Shown piece by piece: positions 8,673 through 48,839 of a DNA stretch of 64,000 bases. Made by a program: the position numbers and the translations under genes. Positions within the stretch are counted from its first letter, which is position 1; each line of letters opens with the position of its first letter. This DNA is from Candidatus Peregrinibacteria bacterium (GTDB lineage: Bacteria; Patescibacteriota; Gracilibacteria; Peribacterales; Peribacteraceae). Under the pieces are notes generated by a model, which saw nothing but the letters and a program-made list of their open reading frames with translations, ran no database searches and was not told the origin of the DNA. The DNA is taken from assembly GCA_016196295.1 (NCBI GenBank), contig JACPYA010000027.1, positions 2,075 to 66,074 on the forward strand. Reading direction: 5' to 3'.

Positions 8673-8674
8673 CC

Positions 8675-9406
8675 ATGCCTCAGATTCCACTCATGCAAAC
8701 CCGCGGCCTCCACAAGTCTTATTTCAACGACGGACTCGAGACACCCGTCCTCTTCGACGTGAACCTCGTCATCGAGAAAGGAGAATTCGTCGCGATCATG
8801 GGGCCCTCCGGTTCCGGCAAATCCACCCTCATGCACATCCTCGGCTTCCTCGATCATCATACGAAGGGGGAGTACCTCTTCCAGGGTGAGCCGACGCAGC
8901 GCATGACGGACGATGCCCTGGCAAAGATCCGCGCGACGCGCGTGAGCTTCGTCTTTCAAGCATTCAATTTGCTGCCGCGGACGACCGTCCTCGGAAATGT
9001 CATGCTCCCGCTCCTGTACCACCCGACGATTCCGCCGAGCGAACGCCATGATCGAGCGCTCAAGGCGATCGAGACCGTCGGCCTCATGGATCGCAAAGAT
9101 TTTTACAGCAGCCAGCTCTCCGGCGGCCAGAAGCAGCGCGTCGCGATCGCGCGTGCGCTCGTGACGGAGCCGGACGTGATTTTCGCCGACGAGCCGACCG
9201 GGAACCTGGATTCAGCCTCCGGCATTCAAGTGATGGAAGCCCTCCAGACCCTCCACGATCACGGTCATACGATCATCCTCGTGACGCACGAGAAGACGAC
9301 CGCGGAGCACGCGGAGCGGATCATCCGCATCAAAGACGGGCGCATCGAGTCCGATACGAAAGAATTCAAGCGCGTGATCGCCACGAAGAATGCTTCCCTT
9401 AAGTAA
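8675..9406 (+). CDS. ABC transporter ATP-binding protein (MacB/LolD type)
   Basis: Walker [11 protein letters not shown], signature [15 protein letters not shown], Walker [12 protein letters not shown]. Confidence 0.9.
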
Positions 9407-9515
9407 CCATGGCTACATGGACTCATTGTTACATTGTTCGCAGGCGATTCGCCGAGTGCTTTCTGTATCAATCATATCTACGATGCTTTGCTAACAATGT
9501 AACCATGTAACAATG
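9404..9515. repeat. inverted octamer arrays: (CATnGnTA)x4 ... 46-nt spacer ... (GTAACAAT)x3
   Basis: The left arm begins at the ATPase stop (TAA 9404-9406). The right arm ends in the permease start codon (aacaATG, 9513). Inner stem 9429-9442 / 9489-9502 has one mismatch. Confidence 0.9.
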
Positions 9516-10754
9516 CGTATCGATGATCTCTTCGACACGGCTATTCGCGGAGTGACCACGAACCTCACACGGTCCTTCCTCACGATGCTCGGCATCATCA
9601 TCGGCGTTGGCTCCGTCATCCTCATGAGCGCCGTGGGAGCCTCCATGAAGGGCGTGATTCTCGGCCAGGTGAGCAGCCTCGGCGCGAAGAGCATGGTGAT
9701 CTTCCCCGGACAGGAAGAGGGCGGCGCGCAAGCCGTGATGACGGGGTTCGACAGTCTCACCTTCGACGATCTCGAGGCACTCGAGAAACTTCCATCGATT
9801 TCCAATCTCGCGCCCGCAATCTTCATGAGCGGCAAGGCATCGTACAATCGCGAAGAAGCGACGCCCCAAGTGATCGGCGTCACGGAGGAATTCTTCCGCA
9901 ATCAGAACGTGGAGGCGCAGATCGGGCGCCTGATCGATAGTGCCGACGATGAAGGGGGACGTTCCGTCGCGCTGCTTGGCTCCGAAACGGCGGAGGAACT
10001 CTTCGGCGAGATCAACCCTCTCGGCAAGCGGGTCCAGGTGGGCGACCACACCTTCACGGTCATCGGCGTAGCGAAACCCCTGGGCGCCCAGTTCTTCCAG
10101 AGCGCCGACAATCGCATCTACGTGCCGTTCAAAACGTCGCAGGACATCACCGGACAGAAGTACATAAATCAGATCACGATGCTTGCGACGGATAGCTTCG
10201 ACCTCGCATTTGCGGATGTCCGCTACCTCTTGCGACAGCGCCATGGGATCTCCGTTCCCAGCGATCATCCCGTGCAGGATCAACACGAAAAAGACGACTT
10301 CATCGTCCATTCGTCGGAGGAAGCCACCACCATTCTCGGTTCGGTGTCACTTGGCCTCACGCTCTTCATCACGACCATCGCCGCGATCTCGCTCATCGTC
10401 GGCGGCATCGGTATCATGAACATCATGCTCGTCTCCGTGAAGGAGCGCACCCGCGAGATCGGGCTTCGCAAAGCCGTCGGTGCGCGTGGGCGGGACATCC
10501 TCTTTCAATTCCTCACGGAAGCGGTGCTCCTCACGACCATCGGCGGCATCATCGGGCTCCTGATCGGCCTCTTCCTTGCGTGGATCATCGCATCCTTCGT
10601 GACAAACATCCTCTCGACGTACGTTTTTGCGATCTCTCTTCCCTCCATCCTCGCGGCGCTCGCGATGGCCGGCGGTACGGGTCTGATCTTCGGCATTTCT
10701 CCCGCACGCCGCGCCGCCAAACTCCCCCCCATGGAAGCACTCCGTTACGAATAA
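9513..10754 (+). CDS. ABC transporter permease (MacB/FtsX family) 1
   Basis: N-terminal TM LTMLGIIIGVGSVILM, large extracytoplasmic domain, and a C-terminal FtsX-type 3-TM bundle with ERTREIGLRKAVGAR. Confidence 0.85.
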   Translation: MRIDDLFDTAIRGVTTNLTRSFLTMLGIIIGVGSVILMSAVGASMKGVILGQVSSLGAKSMVIFPGQEEGGAQAVMTGFDSLTFDDLEALEKLPSISNLAPAIFMSGKASYNREEATPQVIGVTEEFFRNQNVEAQIGRLIDSADDEGGRSVALLGSETAEELFGEINPLGKRVQVGDHTFTVIGVAKPLGAQFFQSADNRIYVPFKTSQDITGQKYINQITMLATDSFDLAFADVRYLLRQRHGISVPSDHPVQDQHEKDDFIVHSSEEATTILGSVSLGLTLFITTIAAISLIVGGIGIMNIMLVSVKERTREIGLRKAVGARGRDILFQFLTEAVLLTTIGGIIGLLIGLFLAWIIASFVTNILSTYVFAISLPSILAALAMAGGTGLIFGISPARRAAKLPPMEALRYE

Positions 10755-10771
10755 TCCCAGCGCCCTCTCTC

Positions 10772-11989
10772 ATGTTCTATCAAGACCTCCTCCACTCGGC
10801 TCTCGGTGGCATCGCCGCCAATAAACTGCGCAGCATCCTGACGATGCTCGGCATCATCATCGGCGTGGGCTCCGTCGTGCTGATGGTCTCACTCGGCAAT
10901 ACGTTCCAGACCTACATCCTCATGCAGATCGAGAGCGTCGGCGGGGGCAACTCGCTCGAGATCTACCCGAAGGGCTTCGAACAGTTCGGCGGCGACCTCG
11001 GCTCGCTCACGTACGAGGACTTCGAGGCAGTCGATCGGCTCACGACGACGGAGCGCGTGACGCCGGTGATCATCGTGAGCCAGGGCGTGCACTACGGAAA
11101 CGAAGACCTCACGCCGTTCACGTTCGGCGCGTACGACGTGTTCTTCGGCAATTACGGGATGAAGCTCGATCGCGGGCGCCTGCTCGACGAGAATGACGAG
11201 AGGGGAGCGAAGAATGTGACGGTCATCGGCTCCGCAACGGCGGAGGATCTCTTCGGCGACGGCGATCCTCTGGGGCAGCGCATCGCGATCGGGCCGGAGA
11301 CCTTCACGGTCGTCGGTCTCCTGGAGCCTTTTGAATCCGCGCTCCTGCAGCAGCTCAACGAAGCCGTCGTCCTTCCTTTCAGCACGGCACGCGCGCTCAC
11401 GGGGCAGAAGCACATCAGCTACATCATCCTGAAAACAGTCGGCGATCCTCTGCTCGCAAAGCAGGATGTGACCGCGGCCCTGCGCCAGCAACACCGCATC
11501 GACAATCCCGAAGATGACCCCGACAAAGACGACTTCATCGCGCGCGGGTCAGATCAAATCACCGGCATCATCGGCACTGTGACGCTCGGGCTCACGGTCT
11601 TCCTCTCACTCGTCGCGGGCATCTCGCTCCTCGTCGGTGGCATCGGGATCATGAACATCATGCTTGTCTCCGTTACCGAGCGCACCCGCGAGATCGGGCT
11701 TCGCAAAGCCGTCGGCGCACGCAAGCGAGACATTCTTCTGCAATTCCTGCTCGAAGCCGTGTTCCTCACGCTCAGCGGCGGCCTCGTCGGCATCCTTGGC
11801 GGGGGACTGCTCGGCTGGCTGATCGCCCAGGCGGCCTCCGGCTTCCTCGGGCAATTGGACTTCGTCCTCTCCGCCTCCGCGGTTCTCCTCGCAGTCGGCA
11901 TGGCGGTCGGTACGGGCCTCGTGTTCGGCATGTATCCGGCGAAGCGGGCGTCGAACTTGAGCCCGATGGAGGCGTTGCGGTTTGAGTGA
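10772..11989 (+). CDS. ABC transporter permease (MacB/FtsX family) 2
   Basis: Paralogue of the preceding gene (LRSILTMLGIIIGVGSVV, ERTREIGLRKAVGAR). Start taken at MFYQDLL; the upstream part of the ORF overlaps permease 1. Confidence 0.85.
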   Translation: MFYQDLLHSALGGIAANKLRSILTMLGIIIGVGSVVLMVSLGNTFQTYILMQIESVGGGNSLEIYPKGFEQFGGDLGSLTYEDFEAVDRLTTTERVTPVIIVSQGVHYGNEDLTPFTFGAYDVFFGNYGMKLDRGRLLDENDERGAKNVTVIGSATAEDLFGDGDPLGQRIAIGPETFTVVGLLEPFESALLQQLNEAVVLPFSTARALTGQKHISYIILKTVGDPLLAKQDVTAALRQQHRIDNPEDDPDKDDFIARGSDQITGIIGTVTLGLTVFLSLVAGISLLVGGIGIMNIMLVSVTERTREIGLRKAVGARKRDILLQFLLEAVFLTLSGGLVGILGGGLLGWLIAQAASGFLGQLDFVLSASAVLLAVGMAVGTGLVFGMYPAKRASNLSPMEALRFE

Positions 11990-12192
11990 TCGCCCCCCCA
12001 AAAAAACGTCATGAGCAGGAACATGTATCCGGTGTGCGAGGCGGGGAGGTGCGTGTTACAGGAAGGCCTGCAGTGAAGAATCGGAGTCCGAGCAGAATTT
12101 CTTTGACTTCTTCGGGAGATTCTCAAGAATGCAAGGCGAGTTAGGCGTTTCGGGATTTGGTTGGTCCGCTTGAAAGGAGGTGCTTAACTTTT

Positions 12193-12240
12193 GAGGTCAG
12201 GGCACGGTTCCTCTTACACCCCGCTCTGACCTCTTTTTTC
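12193..12240 (+). terminator. possible intrinsic terminator (GAGGTCAG ... CTGACCTC + TTTTTT)
   Basis: 8-bp stem with a large loop followed by T6, ~200 nt downstream of the permease operon. Confidence 0.35.
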
Positions 12241-12274
12241 GAAAAAACCGCGGCCCCGCAAGGCGGGGCTGCGG
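12241..12274 (-). terminator. intrinsic terminator of the protease gene
   Basis: On the minus strand: CCGCAGCCCCGCC-ttgc-GGGGCCGCGG followed by TTTTTTC, 15 nt after the stop. Confidence 0.7.
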
Positions 12275-12288
12275 TGAGAGAATGCTGA

Positions 12289-13593
12289 TTAGTACGAACC
12301 GACGTTCAGGAGCGATTCGCTGTAGGAGTCCGGGTCCTCCGTGAATCCGTTTGCGCCGTCCTGCTCGAAGCCGTCATTCACGAGCGCGTCACGCACCGCG
12401 GCCACGTCGGATGCGTTGCTCGGGTTGCCGTGCGATGCGATGTACAAGGCCGCTGCGCCGGCGACATGCGGGCTCGCCATGCTTGTGCCGCTGATCGTCG
12501 CGTACTTGCCGCCTTTCCAGGTAGACGTGATGCACACGCCCGGCGCCGCGATATCGACGACGTAGCCGTAGTTGCTGAAGTTCGCGAAACTGTCATCGGT
12601 GTCGCTGCGGCAGGTCGGGCTCGCGCCTCCGCCCGGCTGGCCGTTGAAGTCGGCGATGGCGGAGACGGTGATCACTTTCGGATGATTCGCCGGGCTGAAG
12701 CTCTGCGCGTCCGCGCTCGAGTTGCCCGCGGCGACCGCGTAGACGACACCCGCGTCGATCGAGCGATCGAGAGCGGCGTTCAGCGCCGAACTCTGGCACT
12801 GACAGCCGAGGCTCATGTTGGCCACTTCGATCTCGTTTGCGTGGGCTGTGACGTAGTCGATGCCCTTGATGATGTCGGACATTTTCCCGGAACCGTTGCG
12901 ATTGAGCACCTTCACCGACCAGATGCGCGCGCCCGGAGCGACCCCGACGACGCCCGCAGAGTTGTCCTTTGCGCCGATGATGCCGGCGACGTGGGTGCCG
13001 TGGCCGTTCAAATCGTCTTTCGACGCATCCGTCGAGTACTTCACCTGCTGCACGACGTTTAAGTCCGGATGGCTCTTCTGCACGCCCGTGTCCAGCACCG
13101 CGACGTCTACATCGACGCGGTTGTCCGATCCGTTGATGTTCGCCGTCGGGCTCGCATCGGCTTCGATGCGGTTGATGCCGGTGGGAAGAGACTGCACCGA
13201 AACAACCGGAGAGGATTTGTGCCTGAATGCGTAGACAACGAAGTCCGGTTCGATCACTTCGACGCGGGAGTCCAGTTTCAGCGCTTCCACTTGGGCAGCA
13301 TCGAGCGTGAGCGCCATGCCCTTGATCCGCTCGTAGAGTTCTTTCTTCTGACTGAGTTTGTGCTGGCGGATGAACTCCTCGATGTCGCCGAGTTCTCCGA
13401 TGTTCTCTTTGAAGATCACGATGTACTGGCCCGGGACGGCTTCGGAAGCGACGACCGCCTGATCGGCGAAGTCCGTCGCGCTCTCATCGGCGCTCACGGC
13501 GGGGAGGAACCCCATCATCGACGCGAGCAGCGTGGCGTAGGCCATCATGCGTGCTGAACCTTTGAACATAGAAAAAAATGATGAAAGAAACAA
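12289..13593 (-). CDS. secreted subtilisin-like serine protease (peptidase S8 with I9-type propeptide)
   Basis: Signal peptide plus catalytic triad motifs VAVLDTGV, HGTHVAGIIGA and SGTSMASPHVAGAAAL. Confidence 0.9.
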   Translation of the reverse strand: MFLSSFFSMFKGSARMMAYATLLASMMGFLPAVSADESATDFADQAVVASEAVPGQYIVIFKENIGELGDIEEFIRQHKLSQKKELYERIKGMALTLDAAQVEALKLDSRVEVIEPDFVVYAFRHKSSPVVSVQSLPTGINRIEADASPTANINGSDNRVDVDVAVLDTGVQKSHPDLNVVQQVKYSTDASKDDLNGHGTHVAGIIGAKDNSAGVVGVAPGARIWSVKVLNRNGSGKMSDIIKGIDYVTAHANEIEVANMSLGCQCQSSALNAALDRSIDAGVVYAVAAGNSSADAQSFSPANHPKVITVSAIADFNGQPGGGASPTCRSDTDDSFANFSNYGYVVDIAAPGVCITSTWKGGKYATISGTSMASPHVAGAAALYIASHGNPSNASDVAAVRDALVNDGFEQDGANGFTEDPDSYSESLLNVGSY

Positions 13594-13901
13594 AGCGTCG
13601 GAACGGTACTTGTCGATTTTTTCATGTCAAAAAAAAGTCCAGATAAAATCATTGGACGTGAAAGTTTTGCCTATCTGTCGCGCCTGTTCCTCTTTGTACT
13701 CTTTTCTTTCCAAGAATCCATTGCACACCACTGTGATCTTGATAGCAAGATCTCTCCTGTAATTTTAGAACATCGATTCCCAGCCCGTCATCCTTGCTCA
13801 TTCATGGCCTCCCTCGAAAAATATTACAGCTATCTTGTGCATTTTTTGTATTCCTGATGCCAGAAACTTGCTCTTGTGTTCAGACGAGCCGCTCCTAGGA
13901 T

Positions 13902-13917
13902 AGGGGAATATTCCCCT
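13902..13917. promoter_or_regulatory. 16-bp perfect palindrome AGGGGAAT|ATTCCCCT upstream of the RTX-like gene
   Basis: Read directly. It lies ~50 nt upstream of the signal-peptide Met (13967). Function is unknown (operator or 5'-UTR hairpin). Confidence 0.4.
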
Positions 13918-13924
13918 CCGTACT

Positions 13925-16627: not shown

Positions 16628-16661
16628 AAAAGGCCCGGTCCTCGAAAAGGATCGGCCTTTT
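16626..16661. terminator. bidirectional intrinsic terminator between convergent genes
   Basis: AAAAAAGGCCCGGTCC-tcgaaaa-GGATCGGCCTTTT: imperfect GC stem flanked by an A-run and a T-run. Confidence 0.6.
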
Positions 16662-16670
16662 AATGACTCC

Positions 16671-17648: not shown

Positions 17649-17719
17649 AACAGGTAATTATAGCATATTTTATATATTTATGCCATTTTAGGTTTATTCC
17701 TGCTGTAAGCCAAAGTCTT

Positions 17720-18463: not shown

Positions 18464-18883
18464 GCATAGATCGTATCGTCGAAAATATATTTATGCAATA
18501 CAATTAAAGAAACGCAAAAGTCTGCATCGCGTAAGAGAGAGCCTAAAACGAATTAGCTGATGATCAGCTGTCCCGTCATCTCCTTGTGACCCGGGCCGCA
18601 CGGCACGAAGCAGCGGAAGGAGGAGAAAAAGAGGAAGGAATAGAGCAATGCGCTGACGCACGAAAAAAGAGGGAAATGATAAATCTGGAGGCAGAATATA
18701 CACGAAAGATGAAGATCAGATTAAGGAAAAAAGAGAAAAATCGGCTCAGGGAGATGCACCTGCGGCGGAGACCTCCAGCGTATCAATTGAGGATTGGCAG
18801 AACAAGCCTTGAAGAGGCCATGTGAACGCTTGTTGTAATTCTCCCATGCTATACAATCGGCTTCTCTTCCTCATTCCATTTCG

Positions 18884-31134: not shown

Positions 31135-31135
31135 A

Positions 31136-33066: not shown

Positions 33067-33103
33067 TGAAGCTGACGGGTGAACAACTAAACGTTTACAA
33101 CTG

Positions 33104-33661: not shown

Positions 33662-33702
33662 TCACACAGGGCAATCCCCCTATTTCTTACCCCACATTTT
33701 TT

Positions 33703-34245: not shown

Positions 34246-34249
34246 GGCA

Positions 34250-34333
34250 CGAAGGTACAGAACGTAATGAATGTAAGGAAGGTGGGCACTTCAAAAGGTC
34301 ACCTTCCTTACATTCCGTACCTCGTTACTTTCC
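34250..34333. repeat. intergenic palindrome: 16-bp perfect stem GAATGTAAGGAAGGTG (34269-34284) / CACCTTCCTTACATTC (34300-34315), flanked by degenerate GTAA/TTAC-containing repeats
   Basis: Read directly. It fills the gap between the stop codons of two convergent genes. Confidence 0.85.
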
Positions 34334-36648: not shown

Positions 36649-36655
36649 AGGAGGA

Positions 36656-37015
36656 TTAGCGGACGGCCAACGTGCGAAGGATGCGGAGCGCGTCTTCCAC
36701 CGTCAGCCGGTTGTCCCCGTTGGGGTCGGCCTTCAGCTGGAGCAGGGTCGGCATGTCGTAACCCTGCACGATCTCCAGGATGGCAATGGCATCCTGCAGA
36801 TCGAGCTCTCCGCTTCCATCGATGTCTCCCGACTGCGCGATCTCGCTCAGCGCGAGGCCGCTTTCCGTGATTTCGTCCGCTTGGATGGCGGCGAATGGGT
36901 GGATGTCCCCGGCGGTTTGCACGCCGACGACAAACGACCCCATCACGCAGACGAGCGCGAAGCCCGCAAGGCGCGCAAGACGGGAGGTGAAGAGGGAATG
37001 GATGTGTGTGTTCAT
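36656..37015 (-). CDS. small membrane-anchored dockerin-domain protein
   Basis: N-terminal TM, then a duplicated Ca-binding dockerin repeat: GDIDGSGELDLQDAIAIL and ADPNGDNRLTVEDALRIL. Confidence 0.6.
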   Translation of the reverse strand: MNTHIHSLFTSRLARLAGFALVCVMGSFVVGVQTAGDIHPFAAIQADEITESGLALSEIAQSGDIDGSGELDLQDAIAILEIVQGYDMPTLLQLKADPNGDNRLTVEDALRILRTLAVR

Positions 37016-37070
37016 TTCTCCTTATTATACGTCAAAAATCCATTTTTCTCCATCGTCCATACTTGAAGAA

Positions 37071-37163
37071 TTGCTACATTGTGACATTGTTAAATTGTAA
37101 GTTTTCCTTTCCTGTAAGCCATAAAGTCCACATCTTGGAACAATGTAACAGTGTAACAATGCC
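37071..37163. repeat. inverted octamer arrays: (aATTGCTA CATTGTGA CATTGTTA AATTGTAA) ... (gGAACAAT GTAACAGT GTAACAAT)
   Basis: Same family as 9404-9515. It lies in the divergent intergenic region between the dockerin gene and holA. Confidence 0.9.
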
Positions 37164-37203
37164 GACTTTTGCGATGTAAGTCACCTCCGGAAGCCGTTAT
37201 AGT

Positions 37204-38181
37204 TTGTCGGTGTCGCAGATCTTCTTCTTCACCGGCGAAAACGCCTACGCGCTCGGCCTCGAGAAGAAGCGGTGGATGGACCAATTTCGCGACAAACACG
37301 GCCCCGAAAACCTGATCCGGCTGGACGCCGCGGGGTTGTCGTTTGGCGCTTTTCTCGATGAAGCGGCATCCGCGCCGTTCATCGCGGAGAAGAGACTCAT
37401 CGTCCTCCAAGGCACGCCGAAATTTTTGAAAGAGGAAACGCTCTCGATCCCGGAGCACCTCCACCCCGATGCCGTGCTGCTCATCGCCGATGGCAAGCCC
37501 GACAAGCGCCTGAGTGCGGTGAAGGAACTGCAGAAGTTTTCCACGCTGAAGGAATTTCCCCTCCTCGATCGCAAAGCTCTCGACGCATGGATCGACCAGC
37601 ATGCGAAGTCGCTCGGGACGAGCATCGCGCCACCCGCGCGCGCCCACTTGGTCGCGATCGTAGGCGAAGACCAAGAAATGCTCGCAAGCGAGCTTACGAA
37701 GCTGACACTGGCGGCGACGGGCCGAGCGATCACCTCGGAAGATATCGATATGCTCGCGATGCCCTCGGGCGAGCAAGAAGTGTGGACGCTGACCAATCTC
37801 CTCTCCGCGGGGAAGAAACGCGAAGCGCTCGCCTACGCGCGCAGCCTCCAGGAGCGCGGCACCACCGCGCAGTCGCTGTGGGCCATCCTCCTCTGGATGC
37901 TCGAAAACCTGACCCTCGTCGCGGCGGCGGCCGCAGCGAACGAACGCAACCCCGGCAAGATCGCGAGTCAGCTGGGTGTGCCGTTCCCCAGTGTTCGCAC
38001 GTTGATGCCGCTCGCGAGCGTCATCGACCCCGTGGCGCTTCGGTCATTCGTTTCTCAGGTCGTGTCGGATGACATCGAGCTCAAGACCGGCGGGTACCGC
38101 GCGACGGCGGAGGCGCCCGAGGAGCTTGTTGCTCTTATCGATCGGTTCATTCTCCGGTGCGGGTCGCTCGTGCGTAAGTAG
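37204..38181 (+). CDS. holA: DNA polymerase III delta subunit
   Basis: IFFFTGENAYAL ... FLDEAASAPFIAEKRLIVL ... typical HolA N-terminus; length 325 aa. TTG or GTG start. Confidence 0.75.
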   Translation: MSVSQIFFFTGENAYALGLEKKRWMDQFRDKHGPENLIRLDAAGLSFGAFLDEAASAPFIAEKRLIVLQGTPKFLKEETLSIPEHLHPDAVLLIADGKPDKRLSAVKELQKFSTLKEFPLLDRKALDAWIDQHAKSLGTSIAPPARAHLVAIVGEDQEMLASELTKLTLAATGRAITSEDIDMLAMPSGEQEVWTLTNLLSAGKKREALAYARSLQERGTTAQSLWAILLWMLENLTLVAAAAAANERNPGKIASQLGVPFPSVRTLMPLASVIDPVALRSFVSQVVSDDIELKTGGYRATAEAPEELVALIDRFILRCGSLVRK

Positions 38182-38259
38182 GTTTATTACGTTTCTTAGG
38201 ACGATGAGGTTTATTAAGTTCCCAATAAACCTAACTCACCCAAATGACCTAATAAACCT
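38180..38259. repeat. inverted nonamer arrays: AGGTTTATT-N18-AGGTTTATT / loop / AATAAACCT-N18-AATAAACCT
   Basis: Two perfect 9-bp stems (38180-38188 / 38251-38259 and 38207-38215 / 38224-38232). The arms overlap the stop codons of both convergent genes. Confidence 0.9.
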
Positions 38260-38642
38260 CATTCTTCTATCTTTTTCAAAAGATCCTCCGCGCTCTGCTC
38301 CTCCGCTTCCCGGTGAGCCCCCTCTGTCTCCTTGCGCGCGCTGCGCTTGCGAGTGCGTTCGGCATCGGTTTTTGCGATCTGTTCCGCCTGTCCCATCTGC
38401 GCGGTCTCCTTGGCATATTTCTGATCGATAGCGGCGAGCTGCGCCTTCTCGTTTTCCAAGATTCCCTGGAGCTCCGCGGTCTGCTCGGCTGTCATGATGG
38501 GCAGGATATTGATCCAATACTGCCGCTCCTCGGTGTTCATGCTCTCCGATCCAAGGATAAGCGCAACAAGCGCCCCAAATTTTGCCTGCGTCTCGGGCGG
38601 GATCGTGGCGCCTGTTGTGTCTCCGGAAATTGCGGAAGTCAT
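38259..38642 (-). CDS. hypothetical protein (helical, Glu/Lys-rich C-terminus)
   Basis: 127-aa ORF with no recognised family. Confidence 0.45.
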   Translation of the reverse strand: MTSAISGDTTGATIPPETQAKFGALVALILGSESMNTEERQYWINILPIMTAEQTAELQGILENEKAQLAAIDQKYAKETAQMGQAEQIAKTDAERTRKRSARKETEGAHREAEEQSAEDLLKKIEE

Positions 38643-38650
38643 TGAAGGAG

Positions 38651-38749
38651 CATTGTTATAGTGCTACATGGCTACATTGTTACGTCTTTCTCTCCACAAA
38701 GCCAGAGTCTTGCGTGCGGGCAATGTAACAATTAAACAATGTAACAATT
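38651..38749. repeat. inverted octamer arrays: (CATTGTTA TAGTGCTA CATGGCTA CATTGTTA) ... (GTAACAAT TAAACAAT GTAACAAT)
   Basis: Same family as 9404-9515. It lies between the greA stop and the start of the downstream gene. Confidence 0.9.
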
Positions 38750-38752
38750 TCG

Positions 38753-39349: not shown

Positions 39350-39366
39350 TACTCGAGAAACGGCAA

Positions 39367-39448
39367 TAGGGCTGGGGTTCGGGCTAGGGCTAGGAATCCT
39401 TTAAAAAGGTCTCATACCTATCTAGCCCAATCCCTAGCCCTAGCCCTA
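39367..39448. repeat. inverted G-rich/C-rich arms: TAGGGCTGGGGTTCGGGCTAGGGCTAGGA ... TCTAGCCCAATCCCTAGCCCTAGCCCTA
   Basis: Read directly. It fills the greA-carB gap, and the carB stop codon (TAG) is the outermost triplet of the right arm. Confidence 0.9.
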
Positions 39449-42802: not shown

Positions 42803-43035
42803 GTCCGGGGGAGACTAGGGTAACTCCGTGAGCAGAGCAAGAGTGTGAATCGGACAAGATGTCCAGGCGTGTCGAGCAGACTTACTCATCTGTTATTCCA
42901 TACCAATTCGCTTTCAAGGAAAGAGAAGATGGTTGTGAGAGCGGCGTATCGGCTGCAAAAATCGATGAAATCGTCGCGAGACGTGGGTCTCGCTCGACGC
43001 CTCCCTCCACTTTCATCTTTATTCTCTCTCTCAAT

Positions 43036-44787
43036 ATGGAAACTCGTTTCTCTTCGCGCATGAGTCGGGTCGTGACTCTCAATATGCGCGCGCTCGTCGG
43101 CGCACTTGCGATCGCCTCGCTCCTCACCCCTCACGCGGCGTTTGCAGCGCGACGATTCTGGGTCGGCGGCTACAGCGGCGGCGAATGGCACGATACGCGC
43201 AACTGGTCCTCGCTTGCGGGCTCAGGAAAGGCGGGTGGCGCCAGCGTACCCACCATCAGCGATGTAGCCATTCTTCATACGACCAATAGCGGCAATACCA
43301 TCCGTCTCGGCAAGGATGGGGCGGCGGGAGGACTCATTCTCTCCACGACCTTTACCGGGGCCCTTCGCATCGGTACTTCCAGCTTGATCCTTGGGGGAAC
43401 GGGTGCCCGCATCGGAAGCGGATACGTCATCGTCGGCACCGGCACGGTGCTCGCGAACTCCGGAAGCTGGACCATGACGGGAGGCGTCTTCTTCAACACG
43501 CTTGCAGGACACAAAATGAGTATTTCCGGAAGCTTGATCGTCATGGGACGCGCGCGCTTCCGCTATTCGGGGACGCTCATCTTCAACGGCGGCGTTGCCG
43601 ACCAGCGGCTCGCCTTCTCCGGCTCTCACACCGCTACGCGGCCGGACAACATGACGGTGGGCAAGCATTCCTTCTCCGGCATCATCCTCAATAACATCGC
43701 GGGGACCACATCGGACGATCTCATCATCTCTGGTTCCTATCTCCGCGCACGCACACTCACGATCACGAATGGAAACTTCGATCTGCGTTCGGAAGATGTC
43801 CCGCTGGCTTTGAGCGGCACCTTGACGCTGGCGAACGATGCGGATGCGACACTCGAGACAGACCAGAACATCACGCTCTCCGGGTCCATTTCGACCGGCG
43901 CGTCCGCCCGCTTCACGATGAGCGGGGGGACGCTCAAGCTCAATGGCATCAGTCAGAACCTGGATGTCGCGGGTGACGGCTCGTCCATGCACACGCTCGA
44001 GATTGATTCCAACAGCGGTGCGTACCTCACCGGGCTTGCCCTCGTGACCTCCACGCTCACGATCAACTCGAGCAGAATTCTCGCATTCGCGGCGAATACC
44101 CTCTACCTCACGGGTGGAACGATCACGAATAACGGCACGATCCGTGAGAACACAGGCAAGCTCGTCCACACGGGTTCCAACATCTTCATCACGAATAGCG
44201 ATTACACGGAAGATCACGAAGTGAAGACGGGCGAAACCATGTACTTCACCGTGACAGACACGGATGAGAACATCAACGGAGCCGCCGCAGACACGCTTGC
44301 CATCGATGTCACGCTCACCGGGGGAGACACGGAGGACGTCACCCTGACGGAAACGGGTAATGCCACCGGCATCTTCCGAGGATCCATCAGCGTCACGAAC
44401 GACACTGCGACGAACAACGATGGCACCTTGCAGACAACGAGCGACCGCACGGCGACGTTCACGTTCACGGACGCACAAGACGCCAAGGTGATTTCGGATA
44501 CAGCCGCTGTCACGGTTGTGGCAGGAACGTCCAGCAGCAACACGAATAGCGGTGGTGGCAGCAGCCGTAGTCGCGGAGGCGGCGGCGGAGGCGGAGGCAA
44601 GGCGGGGGCAGCCGTGCTCGCGAAGCCGACGAGGAATCAAGCCAAGCCGCAAAGGCGCGTCCCGGTGACGAGGAGGATTGCGAAGAAAAAGCTCAGCGTT
44701 GCAGAGCGCAGGGCCGCTCGCCTCCAGAAGCTCAAGGACATGAAGGCGCGCATGGATGCTCGCAGGGCTAAGCGTCTGGGCCGATAA
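43036..44787 (+). CDS. secreted beta-helix-like repeat protein with Gly-rich and Lys/Arg-rich C-terminal tail
   Basis: Signal peptide (ALVGALAIASLLTPHAAFA), RRFWVGG..W.DTRNWS start typical of autotransporter-type beta-strand repeats, T/S/G-rich repeats, and a GGGGGGG + KR-rich tail. Confidence 0.6.
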   Translation: METRFSSRMSRVVTLNMRALVGALAIASLLTPHAAFAARRFWVGGYSGGEWHDTRNWSSLAGSGKAGGASVPTISDVAILHTTNSGNTIRLGKDGAAGGLILSTTFTGALRIGTSSLILGGTGARIGSGYVIVGTGTVLANSGSWTMTGGVFFNTLAGHKMSISGSLIVMGRARFRYSGTLIFNGGVADQRLAFSGSHTATRPDNMTVGKHSFSGIILNNIAGTTSDDLIISGSYLRARTLTITNGNFDLRSEDVPLALSGTLTLANDADATLETDQNITLSGSISTGASARFTMSGGTLKLNGISQNLDVAGDGSSMHTLEIDSNSGAYLTGLALVTSTLTINSSRILAFAANTLYLTGGTITNNGTIRENTGKLVHTGSNIFITNSDYTEDHEVKTGETMYFTVTDTDENINGAAADTLAIDVTLTGGDTEDVTLTETGNATGIFRGSISVTNDTATNNDGTLQTTSDRTATFTFTDAQDAKVISDTAAVTVVAGTSSSNTNSGGGSSRSRGGGGGGGGKAGAAVLAKPTRNQAKPQRRVPVTRRIAKKKLSVAERRAARLQKLKDMKARMDARRAKRLGR

Positions 44788-44810
44788 TTCACAGACATCC
44801 GACGAAGAAG

Positions 44811-44837
44811 ACCCCTCGAGAGTGAGGGGTTTTCTTT
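44811..44837 (+). terminator. intrinsic terminator
   Basis: ACCCCTC-gagagt-GAGGGGT followed by TTTCTTT, 24 nt after the stop. Confidence 0.7.
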
Positions 44838-44839
44838 AG

Positions 44840-44896
44840 TTTGTAGAAAGTAGTTGGTAGTTTTCGTTCTACAAACTACCAGCTGCCAACTACAAG
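44840..44896. repeat. inverted heptamer arrays: TTTGTAG AAAGTAG TTGGTAG / loop / CTACAAA CTACCAG CTGCCAA CTACAAG
   Basis: Read directly, with strict 7-nt periodicity. It ends one nt before the stop codon of the convergent transporter gene. Confidence 0.9.
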
Positions 44897-44897
44897 C

Positions 44898-45986
44898 TCA
44901 TAAATGGTGCCGATGATGCTGCTTCATGTGCTGCTCCAGTTCGCTCTCATTCTGGTGCACGCCGAGGATCTCCAGCAGCAGCACGCCGAGCAGGATCAGC
45001 CCGCCGCCCACGAGGTGGTACCAGAGGATCGGTTCCCCCAGATAGAAGTGCGCGAACGCAATGCCGCAGACGATGTTGATGGTCGAGAAGAGCGAGACGG
45101 CAGAGACCGGGATGCGCTCAATCGCTTCGTAGAAGCTGAAGAGGTTCAGGAACCGGGAGACGAAGCCAAACCCGAGGAGGGCGGGGACGAGCGCCGCGGG
45201 GAAGACGAGCAATTCCTCGCGTAGCGGATGCTCGATGAAGGGAGACACGAGGAAGAACGCGCCGACCGCGACCGATGCGCGCGAGACGATGACGAGCTCC
45301 GAGTCCAGCTTGTGGAGGTACTTCTTGAAGATGATGCCGCCGCACGCGTAGGCGAACGTGGAGAGGAGAATCAGCGGGTCGCCGGGTCTCGTGGAGAAGT
45401 CTTCGGAAAATCCCCGGAGCGCGACGAACGCGATGCCGAAGATGATGACGCTGCTCGCGATGATGTGCGCACGCGTCCAGTGTTCTTGCCGCAGGATCGC
45501 AATCGCGAGGACCATGAGGAACACCATTTCCATACGGCCGAAGAGCTCTGCATTGATGGCTGTCGTGTACTGCAGACCGGAGAAGAAGAGGAGCGGTGCG
45601 AGCAGTCCGTTGCAGAGTCCAAGAGCAATGAGTGGCAGCACGTACTTGCGCTTCATCGCAAACAGGCGACGCACGGTCGGGAAGACGCCGAACGACAGCA
45701 GCACGAAGAACGCCGTCAGGAACTCGCTCAGGACGAGTATCGAGAGCGGCGAGAGCGCTCCGCTCAGTTGCTTGCCGAAGGAGTTATACGTCGAACTCGC
45801 GAGGATCATCACGACGAGCGCGATCCACCCGATACTCTGAGATTCGAGGCTGCGCTTGCGCAAACTCACGAGCGGCCAGTGACGGATGTTGGTATCAAAC
45901 AATCTGAGTATTATATCATGATTCCGCCTGGTCTGGTAGATGCGATTGGCTTCGAGGAAAGAGTCCGAGGAGTCCGAAGAGTCCAA
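44898..45986 (-). CDS. DMT-superfamily (EamA-like) transporter
   Basis: Ten predicted TM helices in two EamA-like halves. The N-terminus is uncertain: the first 9 codons (MDSSDSSDS) are a GAGTCCGAN x3 tandem repeat. Confidence 0.7.
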   Translation of the reverse strand: MDSSDSSDSFLEANRIYQTRRNHDIILRLFDTNIRHWPLVSLRKRSLESQSIGWIALVVMILASSTYNSFGKQLSGALSPLSILVLSEFLTAFFVLLSFGVFPTVRRLFAMKRKYVLPLIALGLCNGLLAPLLFFSGLQYTTAINAELFGRMEMVFLMVLAIAILRQEHWTRAHIIASSVIIFGIAFVALRGFSEDFSTRPGDPLILLSTFAYACGGIIFKKYLHKLDSELVIVSRASVAVGAFFLVSPFIEHPLREELLVFPAALVPALLGFGFVSRFLNLFSFYEAIERIPVSAVSLFSTINIVCGIAFAHFYLGEPILWYHLVGGGLILLGVLLLEILGVHQNESELEQHMKQHHRHHL

Positions 45987-46006
45987 CGATAGCGAGCAAT
46001 GTTACG

Positions 46007-46095
46007 TGGTGCCGCCGGCTGGAATCGAACCAGCATGCCCGGGTAAGGGGCAGGGGATTTTAAGTCCCCCGTGTCTACCATTTCACCACAGCGGC
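46007..46095 (-). tRNA. tRNA-Leu (anticodon TAA), type II, CCA encoded
   Basis: Folded by hand: acceptor GCCGCTG/CGGCGGC, anticodon stem GGGGA/TCCCC with loop CTTAAAA, long variable arm, T-arm GCTGG-TTCGATT-CCAGC. Confidence 0.9.
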
Positions 46096-46100
46096 ACAGC

Positions 46101-46183
46101 AGGGCTAGGGCTTGGAATGATCGAACGGCAAAAAGTATAGAGCAACATCAACTCCTAGCCCTAACCCTAACCCCAGCCCTAAA
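46101..46183. repeat. inverted G-rich/C-rich arms: AGGGCTAGGGCTTGGA ... TCCTAGCCCTAACCCTAACCCCAGCCCTAAA
   Basis: The reverse complement of the right arm matches the left arm of 39367-39395 at 27 of 29 positions. It contains (CCCTAA)2. The sortase stop codon TAG lies inside the arm. Confidence 0.9.
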
Positions 46184-47351
46184 TCGGCAGTGCTTCTAAC
46201 GGCACCCTCTGCACCGGACTCGCGATGCGCTCGCCTTTCTCGCCGATTTTGAGGGCAACGCCGGTGATGGGATCGACTTCCTGCGAGACGAGGATCAAGC
46301 GCCGCAGCGTCGTGCCGACGGGCGTGCACGTCATGAGGGTTGCGATGCGCTGAGCTGTCGGCTGGTCGAGCACCGTGATGTCACTGGGCTTCACTTCCTT
46401 CTTCTCGATCACGGTGTAGCGGTGCTTGTCGCCGCTGAAGTAGACCCAATACTCATCCCCGACCTGGAGCTGATGGAGCCGCGCGAAGACTGTTTTGTAG
46501 TTGCCGGGAGCCCAGGGGTAGTAGGAGCTATGCCCGGTGACGAAGAAATTTCCCGCCTGCCCCGGGCGGGCCGTTCCGGGGTAGTGCACGACACCTCCTT
46601 GCAGGGCGGCTTGGATGTCTTGCTCCACTTGCGTCCAATCTTCCTTCAGAAGCGATGCGTAGGATGGCGTCACGAGCGGCACGTTGAGGTTCAGTTTTGG
46701 GATGATGATGCGGTTATCGGGAGGGCCTACCTCCGGCAAAAAGCTGAGAAGATCGCCATCGGTGCCGGACACCGCGAGTCCCGGGACGCGCTTGAGTTTT
46801 TCCCTGAGCGCCGTGTCGATGCCGGACGATCCGCCGGCACTGTCGAACTTCAGCGGATCAATCTTCGAGCGCATGATCTGCCAGAAGCTCTGATAGTTGA
46901 GCGCGAGGAAGAGGAACAGGAAGATGCAGGCAAACGTGCTGCCGAACCGCACGATATCCAGCGCGAAGAGCGTGCCGCGGTTATATTGCTTGACCGTGCG
47001 GTTGCGTCCCGGGATCCACACCGGCTGCGCGAGGAAGGCCTTCGTGAAGGTCCAGCCGGAGCGACCGCCCCGCTTGAGCTCGCTCCACACGGTGCGGCCG
47101 TCGCGGAAGCTGGCGCGGTACTGACGCAGTCCCTCTGCGATTGCGGAGAACATCACGCCGCGCATCTGGCGGCGCATCTCCCGGAGCATTTTTTCGTCGA
47201 AGAGAGGAGTGGCGGATGCACTTTTCTTCTCCACGGCGGCTTCGATCTTCTTCGCCTGTTTCGGTGCTTCTTGCCGCACGATCTGACGCTCGATCGCCTC
47301 CGAGGGGAGGATGATGTTTCCTTCGGTGTCGTAGTAAGCGTGATGCGTCAT
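46179..47351 (-). CDS. sortase-family transpeptidase with long N-terminal cytoplasmic extension and TM anchor
   Basis: FFVTGHSSY (His), LMTCTPVGT (TLxTC Cys) and a downstream Arg (TLRRLILV). Confidence 0.75.
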   Translation of the reverse strand: MTHHAYYDTEGNIILPSEAIERQIVRQEAPKQAKKIEAAVEKKSASATPLFDEKMLREMRRQMRGVMFSAIAEGLRQYRASFRDGRTVWSELKRGGRSGWTFTKAFLAQPVWIPGRNRTVKQYNRGTLFALDIVRFGSTFACIFLFLFLALNYQSFWQIMRSKIDPLKFDSAGGSSGIDTALREKLKRVPGLAVSGTDGDLLSFLPEVGPPDNRIIIPKLNLNVPLVTPSYASLLKEDWTQVEQDIQAALQGGVVHYPGTARPGQAGNFFVTGHSSYYPWAPGNYKTVFARLHQLQVGDEYWVYFSGDKHRYTVIEKKEVKPSDITVLDQPTAQRIATLMTCTPVGTTLRRLILVSQEVDPITGVALKIGEKGERIASPVQRVPLEALPI

Positions 47352-47424
47352 GTTTTCCAGGTATTATAGCACAAAAACAACTTGTCTTACATCCGAGAGG
47401 GGACTGAGGATAGCATAGGACCGT

Positions 47425-47622
47425 ATGCAGCCAGAAACGGTGAAAATCCCGGTTCCTGAGGACTATCCGATGGATGCCCATCAGATCGTGGCTTTCAGCA
47501 GGCGACTCGGCTTTCCTTTACTTATGGTCAGCGCCGATCGTGAAGTTCTGCTTGATTGTGAGTGGCTCTCACCCGCAGAGATTGATCGCTATCGCCGGCA
47601 CCTCACGATGCTCCTTCAATGA
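47425..47622 (+). CDS. small hypothetical protein
   Basis: 65-aa ORF. Its 3' end overlaps the mnmA 3' end by 20 nt. Confidence 0.25.
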   Translation: MQPETVKIPVPEDYPMDAHQIVAFSRRLGFPLLMVSADREVLLDCEWLSPAEIDRYRRHLTMLLQ

Positions 47623-48706
47623 TGCCCCCTCCCACGACCTCCTGCCCGCGGTAGAGCACGAGGCACTGCCCGGGTGCCTGCGGTTCCATCGGAGAGTCAA
47701 ACATGAAGCGCCCGGTGGATCCACTGAACGTGATGGATCCGGATTTTTTATGTGACAATGAGCGCGTGCGGACGTCGAATCGCGTCGGCTCGTCGCCCTC
47801 CGGTTTCCATGAGACCCAATGCAGTTCTTTCACCGTGATCGCGTGTGTACGCTCCTCGCCCTTCGGGGCGACGATCAAGCGATTCTTCTCTGCATCTTTG
47901 GAGACGACCTCGAGGGGGATTTTGAGTCCGCCGATTTTGAGGCCGCGACGCTGACCCAACGTATAGAGAGGCAACCCTTCGTGGTTGCCGACCACGGTGC
48001 CATCGCGCCGCACGATTTCTCCTGGATGGATGGCGTCTGCGAGATGTCGCTTCAAAAATTCCTGCGGAGATTTTTCCGGGAAGAAGCAGAGATCCTGACT
48101 CTCGCGGTAGGTCCTCTTCTCGTACGGCACGCCAAAGTGCTCGGCGAGGCCGTAGACCTGCGACTTCTGCATCGCGCCGAGCGGGAACAGAACGCGCTTC
48201 AGTTGTTCCTGCGTGAGCCCGTAGAGGTAGTAGCTCTGGTCTTTCGGCGTATCGACCGCTTCCAGAAGGACCATCCGTTCCGATTCATCCGACATCCGTT
48301 CACGTGCGACGCGAGCGTAGTGACCGGTCGCGAGCATGTCGCACCCGAGCTCTTCGGTCAGTTCCAGAAGTTTTCCGAACTTGATCGTGCGGTTGCAGCG
48401 GATGCAGGGGTTCGGCGTGCGACCCGCTCGGTATCCTTCCAGAAACGGATCGACCACCTGCTCTTTGAACTCTTGCTCGAGATCGACGATGTGGTAGGGG
48501 ATTGCAAGCGCCTTCGCGACCGCTTGCGCCCGCGAGGCCGTCTGCGCATTGCAGCACTTGCTCGGGAGAATCTCCGCGAGCGCCGGAGCCAGCGGGTCGG
48601 TCCAAAGCGTGAAGCGCACCCCCACAAGATCGTGCCCCTGCTCTTTCAGCAGGTGCGCGACGACGGAACTGTCGATTCCTCCCGATAGGGCTACGAGAAT
48701 CCTCAT
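47603..48706 (-). CDS. mnmA: tRNA 2-thiouridine(34) synthase
   Basis: VALSGGIDSSV PP-loop, CCNAQ and NPCIRCNRTIKF catalytic Cys regions. Confidence 0.95.
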   Translation of the reverse strand: MRILVALSGGIDSSVVAHLLKEQGHDLVGVRFTLWTDPLAPALAEILPSKCCNAQTASRAQAVAKALAIPYHIVDLEQEFKEQVVDPFLEGYRAGRTPNPCIRCNRTIKFGKLLELTEELGCDMLATGHYARVARERMSDESERMVLLEAVDTPKDQSYYLYGLTQEQLKRVLFPLGAMQKSQVYGLAEHFGVPYEKRTYRESQDLCFFPEKSPQEFLKRHLADAIHPGEIVRRDGTVVGNHEGLPLYTLGQRRGLKIGGLKIPLEVVSKDAEKNRLIVAPKGEERTHAITVKELHWVSWKPEGDEPTRFDVRTRSLSHKKSGSITFSGSTGRFMFDSPMEPQAPGQCLVLYRGQEVVGGGIIEGAS

Positions 48707-48839
48707 AACATTGCTACATTGCTATATTGTCACATTGTTCGCAAAGCGATTCTGAAGCGAATGACAGCAAACTTGCCCTCTTGCATGCTGGCACTGTAGC
48801 AATGTGACCATGTAACAATGTGTACCTTGTAACAATTTG
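48706..48839. repeat. inverted octamer arrays: (CATTGCTA CATTGCTA TATTGTCA CATTGTTC) ... (GTAGCAAT GTGACCAT GTAACAAT ... GTAACAAT)
   Basis: Same family as 9404-9515. The internal ACATTGTTCGCAAAGCGATTC matches 9431-9450 at 19 of 21 positions. It lies in the divergent mnmA / DUF2157 intergenic region and abuts the mnmA ATG. Confidence 0.9.

What the first reader, a model, noticed from the sequence alone, without database searches (positions are those of the whole stretch)
9404..48839. CATTGNTA / GTAACAAT octamer-array family: four copies, with arms facing gene starts
Four elements (9404-9515, 37071-37163, 38651-38749, 48706-48839) have a left arm of four CATTGNTA-like octamers and a right arm of three GTAACAAT-like octamers, around 35-60 nt spacers. 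Two copies also share spacer sequence: ACATTGTTCGCAGGCGATTC at 9431-9450 versus ACATTGTTCGCAAAGCGATTC at 48732-48752. That implies common descent, in the manner of a MITE or REP family. Read outward, each arm is (TGTAACAAT)n, which resembles an extended -10 box (TGnTAnAAT). The outward ends abut or contain start codons: the permease ATG at 9513 is the aacaATG of the arm, the mnmA ATG lies at 48704-48706, and the ATG at 38640-42 sits in a CATTG. In the two divergent regions (37071-37163 and 48706-48839), one arm faces each gene.
Basis: partly seen in the sequence, partly recalled or inferred. Interest (0 to 1): 0.65.

Follow-up and report, generated by a model that had tools for sequence, protein, structure and literature searches.

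The report
Octamer-array palindromic repeat family
The four loci are real copies of a dispersed hairpin-forming DNA repeat, about 95-130 bp long with arms made of tandem 8-bp units, that has colonised gene junctions in some Peribacteria (and at least one Bacteroidota genome); it behaves like a REP/MITE-type selfish repeat, not like a set of promoters.

Summary
Only four places in the window carry tandem TARCAATG octamers. Each has a (CATTGYTA)x4 arm, a 35-56 nt spacer and a (TARCAATG)x3-6 arm. A profile built from 22 copies in other genomes recovers exactly these four (E 4e-16 to 5e-8).

The family has a conserved asymmetric core, GTTCGC(A)AAGCG, abutting the left arm, and a TTGCRTGC box abutting the right arm. 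The loop between them is free to vary. Copies sit at unrelated housekeeping junctions (rpsL-rpsG, dcd-pdxS, mnmA-DUF2157).

Relatives have tight junctions of 0-11 nt where the window has insertions. A close pair of contigs shows presence/absence at one site and an inverted centre at another. About 106 kb from five relatives has no full copy.

The same architecture occurs here with heptamer and hexamer units, one of which shares the core.

The promoter reading is not supported. Arms also abut stop codons. Copies lie between convergent genes. Neighbouring genes keep their own -10 boxes with or without the element.

The RAYT link is not supported either: two of the five RAYT genes examined carry ordinary GC-rich palindromes beside them, and none has an octamer array.

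The best reading is a REP/MITE/STRR-like palindromic repeat. How it is mobilised and what it does remain unknown.

The parts
9404..9515 (+). E1: complete element between the ABC ATPase stop (9404-9406) and the permease ATG (9513). Left arm 9408-9439, core GTTCGCAGGCGA 9436-9447, right arm 9492-9515.
   Evidence: HMM hit E 4.4e-16 on the + strand. RNA fold -32.2 kcal/mol, z -4.1. The same junction is TGAcATG in L274, TAA plus 11 nt in L273, and a 4-nt overlap in L276.
37069..37161 (-). E2: element in the divergent region between gene 36656-37015 (-) and holA 37204-38181 (+). Arms 37069-37100 and 37138-37161. Decayed core GTTCCAAGATG on the minus strand, 37131-37141.
   Evidence: HMM hit E 5e-8, best on the minus strand. 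Fold z -2.6 and -2.9. The left gene has its own TGGAGA-17-TATAAT plus AAGGAG outside the arm. L273 has no element here.
38651..38749 (.). E3: element between the greA stop (38753, minus strand) and the start of gene 38259-38642 (minus strand). Arms 38651-38682 and 38718-38749. A right-inner box TTGCGTGC lies at 38710-38717; the core is decayed.
   Evidence: HMM E 1.7e-14 on the minus strand and 1.3e-12 on the plus strand. The TTGCGTGC box next to the right arm suggests plus orientation, so the orientation is undecided. Fold z -1.5 and -2.4. Orthologous junctions are 42 nt with a (TAGCTTT)x3 array in L122 and 38 nt in L273.
48706..48839 (+). E4: element in the divergent mnmA (-) / DUF2157 (+) region. 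Left arm 48709-48740, core GTTCGCAAAGCGA 48737-48749, right-inner box TTGCATGC 48781-48788, right arm 48789-48837.
   Evidence: HMM E 9e-14 on the + strand. Fold -39 kcal/mol, z -3.3. An orthologous copy in the same orientation is in L121 (mnmA 80% identical). L120 keeps only the left arm. L122 and L123 have none.
54653..54747 (-). Related element with heptamer arms (GTTTTTC)n / (GAAAAAC)n that carries the same core: CTCGCTTGCGAAC at 54700-54712 is GTTCGCAAGCGAG on the minus strand.
   Evidence: The core is found by the family HMM at E 0.12. Fold -28.8 kcal/mol.

Best explanation
The four loci are copies of a non-coding, dispersed palindromic repeat of about 85-130 bp.

Anatomy: a left arm of three to four CATTGYTA octamers; a conserved core GTTCGC(A)AAGCG fused to the last unit; a free loop of 10-45 nt; a box TTGCRTGC or TTTGCG that partly pairs with the core; and a right arm of three to six TARCAATG octamers.

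Shown:
- It is a family with a conserved whole-element sequence at unrelated gene junctions.
- It is gained and lost between close relatives.
- It lands in junctions that are tight (0-11 nt) in genomes without it.
- Its centre can be found inverted at the same site.
- Its arms evolve by homogenisation within each array.
- Either strand can fold into a long hairpin.

Inferred:
- It is a selfish or near-neutral REP/MITE-like element.
- It is spread by an unidentified trans-acting enzyme, or by gene conversion between copies, which works in either orientation because the arms are inverted repeats.
- Its arrays are lengthened and homogenised by replication slippage.
- It is tolerated inside operons because the transcript hairpin loops the insert out and leaves the upstream stop and the downstream start side by side at the base of the stem.
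- It has no U-tract, so it should not terminate transcription.

It is one sequence type of a broader habit of this genome, in which gene junctions are filled with hairpins whose stems are 6-8 bp tandem repeats.
For: Family membership and conservation:
- An HMM built from 22 non-window copies hits exactly E1-E4.
- The core sits in the same position in 24 distinct copies.
- One metagenome lineage has near-identical 92-93 bp copies, spacer included, at rpsL-rpsG, dcd-pdxS, after pdxT and elsewhere.

Lineage-specific insertion:
- The ATPase-permease junction is 106 nt in the window, against TGAcATG in L274, 11 nt in L273 and a 4-nt overlap in L276.
- The MFP-ATPase junction is a 71-nt heptamer hairpin in the window, against TAAacATG in L273 and TAAtcATG in L274.
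- There is no full copy in about 106 kb from L122, L123 and L273-L276.
- A copy is present in L252 and absent from L259, where the two convergent stops are 6 nt apart.
- At one junction, with 93-95% identical flanks, the outer boundaries are the same but the centre is inverted and the loop differs.
- E4 and its L121 orthologue keep the arms and core but not the loop.

Hairpin potential: all four fold with arm-to-arm pairing, z -1.5 to -4.1.

Co-variation of whole arms: copies with the same core have AATGGTTA/TAACCATT arms (L069) or CGTTTTT/AAAAACG arms (window 54653-54747).

No preference for an intergenic type, for a strand of the core, or for a strand of the fold.

Cross-phylum presence: two core-bearing copies lie on a Bacteroidota contig that encodes a T9SS sorting-domain protein.
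Against: - No mobilising enzyme was found. Genes between arrays are housekeeping genes.
- No target-site duplication could be defined.
- Within the octamer family the order of unit variants in one arm is not mirrored in the other: real duplex energy -21.4 kcal/mol against -21.4 for permuted units. RNAalifold sees little covariation. Exact base-pairing is therefore not demonstrably under selection.
- In other CPR lineages the two arms carry systematically different variants and pair weakly, at -7 to -14 kcal/mol.
- Conservation of the unit and the core across phyla would also fit a sequence-specific binding protein.
- The stop/start juxtaposition idea is inference only.
Confidence: 0.5

Rival explanations
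1. Outward-facing promoter arrays. Each TGTAACAAT acts as an extended -10 element, and the 8-bp period puts the next ATG at +1, giving leaderless transcripts of the flanking genes.
For: The geometry is exact at the E1 right arm: TGT-AACCAT, then 6 nt, then the permease ATG at 9513. This organism does use leaderless -10 boxes 7-8 nt before the ATG, and the DUF2157 box TACAAT differs from the unit AACAAT only at -12. mnmA in the window has no other recognisable -10 box between the arm and its ATG.
Against: Arms also abut stop codons (E1 left, E3 right). Copies lie between convergent genes. Paired elements show no bias towards gene starts. A sigma-70 scan finds nothing in the arms. Neighbouring genes have their own -10 boxes outside the arms. 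For mnmA the last unit ends 3 nt from the ATG, which is the wrong spacing. Sister elements have units unlike any -10. Relatives express the same genes without the element.
Confidence: 0.1
2. Operator-like or nucleoid protein-binding arrays. A sequence-specific protein binds cooperatively to the tandem 8-bp units, in the way ribbon-helix-helix proteins bind tandem 7-8 bp boxes. A second site, the core, positions it.
For: The octamer (C4 A5 A6 T7 over 90% conserved) and the 11-nt core are conserved across genera and two phyla while loops are free. The polarity of the arrays is conserved, 32 outward pairs against 8 inward, while exact arm pairing is not. Tandem 7-8 bp boxes in direct and inverted arrays are the known binding mode of MetJ, omega and ParG (my own knowledge, not tested here).
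Against: No candidate protein was found next to any copy. Elements with the same core have quite different units, which one protein could not read. Patchy presence among close relatives, and sites inside ribosomal-protein operons, do not look like a regulon.
Confidence: 0.15
3. REPIN-type elements mobilised by the RAYT (REP-associated tyrosine transposase) genes of the genome.
For: The window holds three Y1_Tnp genes, two of which pass the NCBIfam REP_Tyr_transpos cut-off. The elements are intergenic palindromic doublets. GTAG or GTAA occurs in every unit.
Against: No RAYT gene has an octamer array beside it. The window RAYT at 60901-61338 has (CCCCTTCGCGGGCGCGGA)x2 on one side. The L251 RAYT has GCCAGGCATTCCTGCCTGGC on both sides, and the L123 one has GC-rich hairpins. 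RAYT homologues were seen only in the window, L251 and L123 among about 150 loci that carry arrays. The Bacteroidota contig with two copies has no RAYT homologue within its 8 kb.
Confidence: 0.08
4. In-situ birth with no mobility. Arrays arise by slippage of the stop-start junction itself (TAA-CA-ATG, TGA-ATG-T, TAG-GGC), followed by a local inverted duplication.
For: Units look like stop-plus-start junctions. Ancestral junctions are TGAcATG, TAAacATG and TAAtcATG. The carB stop TAG is the first unit of the (TAGGGC)n array. Arrays abut stops and starts. The same octamer array turns up in many phyla, over 119 hits against 4-12 expected. Orthologous junctions carry different units in different species.
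Against: Whole-element identity at unrelated loci, including the order of unit variants, the core and the spacer, needs copying of the element as a unit. The 11-nt core recurs next to arms of different units and in two phyla. Stop codons inside units are not under selection: TGG was seen 15 times against 12 expected.
Confidence: 0.12
5. Small invertible switch (inverton). The centre flips between the inverted arms and changes expression of a neighbouring gene.
For: The same site in L252 and L259 has the centre in opposite orientations with identical outer boundaries. Orientation of the core relative to genes looks random.
Against: The two loops differ in sequence, so this is replacement and not a simple flip. 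The centre is only 30-55 nt and contains no promoter-like site. No recombinase gene is nearby.
Confidence: 0.05

Closest known systems
Cyanobacterial STRR (short tandemly repeated repetitive) sequences
   Same: Short tandem units in intergenic DNA that can form hairpins, for example between hupS and hupL. Function is unknown, with proposed roles in transcript stability or translational coupling (PMC2670836). The general habit in this window, hairpins with 6-8 bp tandem-repeat stems at gene junctions, matches this best.
   Different: The units here are 8 bp (also 6 and 7) rather than 7 bp. The hosts are CPR and Bacteroidota, not heterocystous cyanobacteria. The octamer family also has a conserved non-repetitive core and spreads as a whole element.
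REP / BIME / REPIN elements
   Same: Dispersed intergenic imperfect palindromes inside operons and between convergent genes. They are patchy among relatives and form hairpins on either strand.
   Different: The arms are tandem octamers, not a single 20-40 nt palindrome. No RAYT gene is flanked by them. The RAYT genes here carry other, GC-rich palindromes.
MITEs (for example Correia, RUP, Nezha)
   Same: About 100 bp, with terminal inverted repeats, presence/absence between close relatives, and many intergenic sites.
   Different: No target-site duplication and no parent insertion sequence were found. Loops diverge while the ends stay conserved. The ends are internally repetitive.
Operators of ribbon-helix-helix proteins (MetJ met-boxes, omega heptads, ParG tetramer boxes)
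   Same: Tandem 7-8 bp units in direct and inverted arrays with conserved polarity (from my own knowledge).
   Different: No cognate protein is known. There are many copies at unrelated housekeeping junctions, and the unit varies between copies.

Membership tests
Sigma-70 extended -10 promoter | TGnTATAAT-like element with T at -12, A at -11 and T at -7 | tested here: not met
   The outward unit TGTAACAAT has TG, A-11 and T-7 but A at -12. The consensus scan finds no site in any arm.
Sigma-70 extended -10 promoter | Lies upstream of, and points towards, a transcription unit | tested here: not met
   Arms abut stop codons (E1 left, E3 right). Copies lie between convergent genes. The context distribution matches the background.
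Sigma-70 extended -10 promoter | A transcription start maps 6-8 nt downstream | not testable with these tools
   No transcript data are available. The geometry fits only at the E1 right arm.
REP/REPIN-RAYT system | The RAYT gene is flanked by its cognate repeats | tested here: not met
   No RAYT gene has an octamer array beside it. The RAYT at 60901-61338 and those in L251 and L123 carry GC-rich palindromes instead.
REP/REPIN-RAYT system | Intergenic palindromic doublets in many copies | tested here: met
   There are 4 copies in 64 kb and 46 distinct HMM hits in 39 loci, all intergenic.
MITE | Terminal inverted repeats and small size | tested here: met
   The arms are inverted arrays, and elements are mostly 84-131 bp.
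MITE | Target-site duplication | tested here: inconclusive
   No consistent direct repeat is seen at the boundaries of 24 copies or at the L252/L259 filled and empty sites. The boundaries are blurred because the end units resemble the stop/start junctions.
MITE | Presence/absence polymorphism between close relatives | tested here: met
   L252 against L259. Window against L273, L274 and L276.
MITE | An autonomous element with the same ends | tested here: not met
   The largest ORFs tested between array pairs 0.5-4.5 kb apart are housekeeping genes. Only about 1 Mb of loci was searched.
STRR-like tandem-repeat hairpins | Intergenic tandem units of about 7 bp able to form a hairpin | tested here: met
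   Units are 6-8 bp.
Intrinsic terminator | G+C-rich stem followed by a U-tract | tested here: not met
   There is no such site for the long arm-to-arm hairpin of any window copy; the only hit, at 9407-9420, is a 5-bp stem inside the E1 left arm. Some copies in other genomes are followed by GTTTTT.
Rfam RNA families | Match to a curated covariance model | tested here: not met
   The gathering-threshold scan found only two tRNAs. At E up to 5 there were only chance miRNA-hairpin matches.
Inverton | Both orientations exist, and a recombinase is associated | tested here: inconclusive
   Opposite orientation in L252 and L259, but with different loops. No recombinase is nearby. Within-population orientation is not testable here.

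The most novel reading that the evidence does not exclude
This is a previously undescribed class of non-autonomous mobile element shared by CPR bacteria and Bacteroidota. Its ends are arrays of 8-bp units, and its conserved core is read by an unidentified recombinase or binding protein. It targets stop-start junctions inside operons, ribosomal-protein operons included. Its hairpin keeps the two cistrons translationally coupled by holding the stop and the start together at the stem base.
Probability: 0.2. Interest if true: 0.75.

Novelty: new variant of a known kind. Interest (0 to 1): 0.5.

Why it matters
CPR genomes are thought of as streamlined, with little repeated DNA. Here about half of the mid-sized gene junctions in one Peribacteria genome are filled by hairpins built from 6-8 bp tandem repeats. 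One sequence type is a true dispersed family that also occurs in a Bacteroidota genome. That gives a tractable marker of recent DNA mobility and recombination in uncultured bacteria. It also poses a concrete question: how do operons tolerate 100-nt insertions in junctions that are otherwise 0-11 nt? For annotation, the ATG and TAA triplets inside the arrays create false gene starts and ends, as seen with the spurious N-terminal extension of mnmA in L121.

Tried and rejected
- Selection for stop codons in units (TAA, TAG, TGA against TGG): TGG is not depleted, 15 observed against 12 expected, Fisher p 0.29.
- Fine-scale compensation between arms: permuting the order of units gives the same duplex energy. 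Alifold covariation is weak.
- Strand-specific RNA signal through G-U pairs: 14 copies fold better on one strand and 16 on the other, with no link to gene direction.
- RAYT adjacency: rejected.
- Autonomous partner between distant arms: only housekeeping genes.
- Phage link: 10 short arrays in viral contigs, none with the core.
- Rfam: nothing.
- Literature: no paper holds the tandem sequence. The paper on the Peribacteria complete genomes does not describe such elements.
- Looking up the source contig through its own proteins failed, so the rest of the genome could not be censused.
- An inward-facing promoter reading (TGTTACATT is a better extended -10) was considered. I dropped it because I found no evidence for it. 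Solo arrays between co-directional genes mostly have TAACAATG on the coding strand (40:15), but that bias comes from the non-CPR loci.


Full report
**Observation.** The four loci are as described.
- Exact TAACAATG occurs 8 times against 0.48 expected.
- A two-unit 14-mer with up to 2 mismatches occurs 11 times against 0.04 expected.
- A three-unit tandem score finds nothing outside the four loci.
- Each locus has a left arm of four CATTGYTA-like units, a spacer of 35-52 nt, and a right arm of three to six TARCAATG-like units.

**Organism and genes.**
- mnmA is 100% identical to a Candidatus Peregrinibacteria protein on a 68-kb NCBI contig. Its relatives are Peribacteria.
- E1 lies between an ABC ATPase and a MacB-type permease.
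- E2 lies between a small secreted protein and holA.
- E3 lies between greA and a small conserved gene.
- E4 lies between mnmA and DUF2157.

**A cross-genome family with a conserved core.** The 'shared spacer' of E1 and E4 is the start of a core, GTTCGC(A)AAGCG, fused to the last left-arm unit.
- It recurs in the same position in Peribacteria and Peregrinibacteria genomes and metagenomes. There are 24 distinct copies.
- Many copies also have TTGCRTGC or TTTGCG next to the right arm, which partly pairs with the core.
- One metagenome lineage has near-identical 92-93 bp copies, spacer included, at rpsL-rpsG, dcd-pdxS, downstream of pdxT and elsewhere.
- An HMM built only from the 22 non-window copies finds exactly E1-E4 in the window (E 4e-16, 2e-14, 9e-14, 5e-8). 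It also finds the core of a heptamer-armed element at 54653-54747 (E 0.12).
- Two core-bearing copies lie on a contig that encodes a T9SS sorting-domain protein, which marks it as Bacteroidota.

**Gain, loss and rearrangement.**
- Relatives syntenic with the window have tight junctions where the window has elements. ATPase-permease is TGAcATG in L274, 11 nt in L273 and a 4-nt overlap in L276, against 106 nt here. MFP-ATPase is TAAacATG in L273 and TAAtcATG in L274, against a 71-nt heptamer hairpin here.
- E4 is shared with L121 (mnmA 80% identical) in the same orientation but with an unrelated loop. L120 keeps one arm. L122 and L123 have none.
- L252 and L259 have flanks 93-95% identical. At one junction both carry the element with identical outer boundaries, but the centre is inverted and the loop differs.
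- A second L252 copy is absent from L259, where the two convergent stop codons are 6 nt apart.
- About 106 kb from L122, L123 and L273-L276 holds no full copy. This includes 42 kb of a complete 1.25-Mb Peribacteria genome.

**A general habit of this genome.** The window holds at least seven further junction hairpins whose stems are short tandem repeats of other units:
- 8600-8676, (GAATGTT)/(AACATTC)
- 34264-34320
- 38180-38259
- 39367-39448, (TAGGGC)/(GCCCTA)
- 44838-44898
- 46096-46182
- 54653-54747

. In the window, 10 of 20 junctions of 35-260 nt score 0.7 or more for tandem periodicity. In relatives the figure is 7 of 29, and only 3 of those reach 0.75. Relatives have such hairpins at other junctions, with other units.

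**Tests of mechanism.**
- *Promoter.* There is no sigma-70-type site in any arm. DUF2157 has a TAnAnT box 7-8 nt before its ATG in five species, whether or not the element is present. Gene 36656-37015 has TATAAT plus AAGGAG outside the arm. Copies lie between convergent genes. Paired elements occupy ++, --, -+ and +- junctions 8:6:5:3, against a background of 137:145:74:66.
- *Hairpin.* All four copies fold with arm-to-arm pairing, z -1.5 to -4.1. However, the order of unit variants is not mirrored between arms, there is no strand preference, and alignment covariation is weak. What does co-vary is the whole unit. Copies with the same core have AATGGTTA/TAACCATT arms or CGTTTTT/AAAAACG arms.
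- *RAYT.* The window has three Y1_Tnp genes, two above the REP_Tyr_transpos cut-off. None of the five RAYT genes examined has an octamer array beside it. Those at 60901-61338, in L251 and in L123 carry GC-rich palindromes instead.
- *Autonomous partner.* None was found.
- *Phages.* A few short arrays occur, none with the core.
- *Rfam.* Nothing.

**Wider distribution of the octamer array.** A 21-nt pattern of two and a half units hits more than 119 stretches in GTDB representative genomes, where 4-12 are expected. Most are in Patescibacteria and Bacteroidota. About 92% of the arrays scored lie outside ORFs. Outward-facing pairs outnumber inward ones 32 to 8, and 138 arrays are solo. Solo arrays between co-directional genes have TAACAATG on the coding strand 40:15. 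By my tally of the listing against record titles, the bias comes from non-CPR loci, about 34:4 against about 6:11 in CPR.

**Conclusion.** The finding is a real, apparently undescribed dispersed palindromic repeat with octamer-array arms and a conserved core. It is closest in kind to cyanobacterial STRR hairpins (PMC2670836), REP/REPIN elements and MITEs. The promoter and RAYT readings are not supported. How it is copied and whether it does anything for the host remain open. Conservation of the unit and core across phyla suggests a sequence-specific trans-acting partner that I could not identify.

Noticed in passing
window 8600-8676, 34264-34320, 38180-38259, 39367-39448, 44838-44898, 46096-46182, 54653-54747, 62889-62948: Most short gene junctions hold hairpins whose stems are tandem 6-9 bp units of different sequence: GAATGTT, TAGGGC, GTAGTTT, GTTTTTC, AGGTTTATT. 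Several units begin at or contain the upstream stop codon. For example, the carB TAG is the first TAGGGC unit, and TGA-ATG appears in the heptamer.
   Followed up: partly
window 515-1642 (-), 5279-5980 (+), 60901-61338 (-): There are three IS200-like/RAYT genes in 64 kb. The first is read as one ORF with Ham1 (Y1_Tnp at residues 15-153, Ham1 at 177-373). Relatives L273 and L276 have a stand-alone Ham1 of about 200 aa, so a RAYT has inserted directly upstream, in frame or fused.
   Followed up: partly
window 60862-60896; L251 about 10985-11025 and about 11625-11670: RAYT genes carry G+C-rich palindromes beside them: (CCCCTTCGCGGGCGCGGA)x2 on one side in the window, and GCCAGGCATTCCTGCCTGGC on both sides in L251. 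These are probably their own REP sequences.
   Followed up: partly
window 48855-48873 and orthologues in L120-L123: DUF2157 has a conserved -10-like box (TACAAT, TATAAT, TAGAAT, TATACT, TACACT) 7-8 nt before its ATG in five species. This suggests leaderless transcripts are common in Peribacteria. mnmA shows the same in L120 and L122.
   Followed up: partly
L001-L119 (genome-contig hits): Tandem (TAACAATG)n arrays of 3-12 units occur across Bacteroidota (Chryseobacterium, Flavobacterium, Saprospiraceae), many CPR phyla and a few others. They often lie next to arrays of other octamers (AACCATGA, AATTTGAA, TAGTTAAT). In non-CPR loci they lie on the coding strand, about 34:4 by my tally, often right after a stop codon.
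   Followed up: partly
L075 1034-4442 (Shapirobacteria); L268 3329-3435: Arrays and elements sit between genes of ribosomal-protein operons (rplB, rpsC; rpsL-rpsG). Such junctions are normally only a few nt long.
   Followed up: no
L039 4102-4200: A second copy of the last ~21 codons of the upstream gene (...DIKQAIEQGRLSEVLG*) lies between the gene's stop and the element. This is a tandem duplication of the gene's 3' end beside the repeat.
   Followed up: no
L121 5159-5185: An in-frame ATG inside the right arm extends the mnmA ORF by 9 spurious codons. The arrays' ATG and TAA triplets can mislead gene callers.
   Followed up: no
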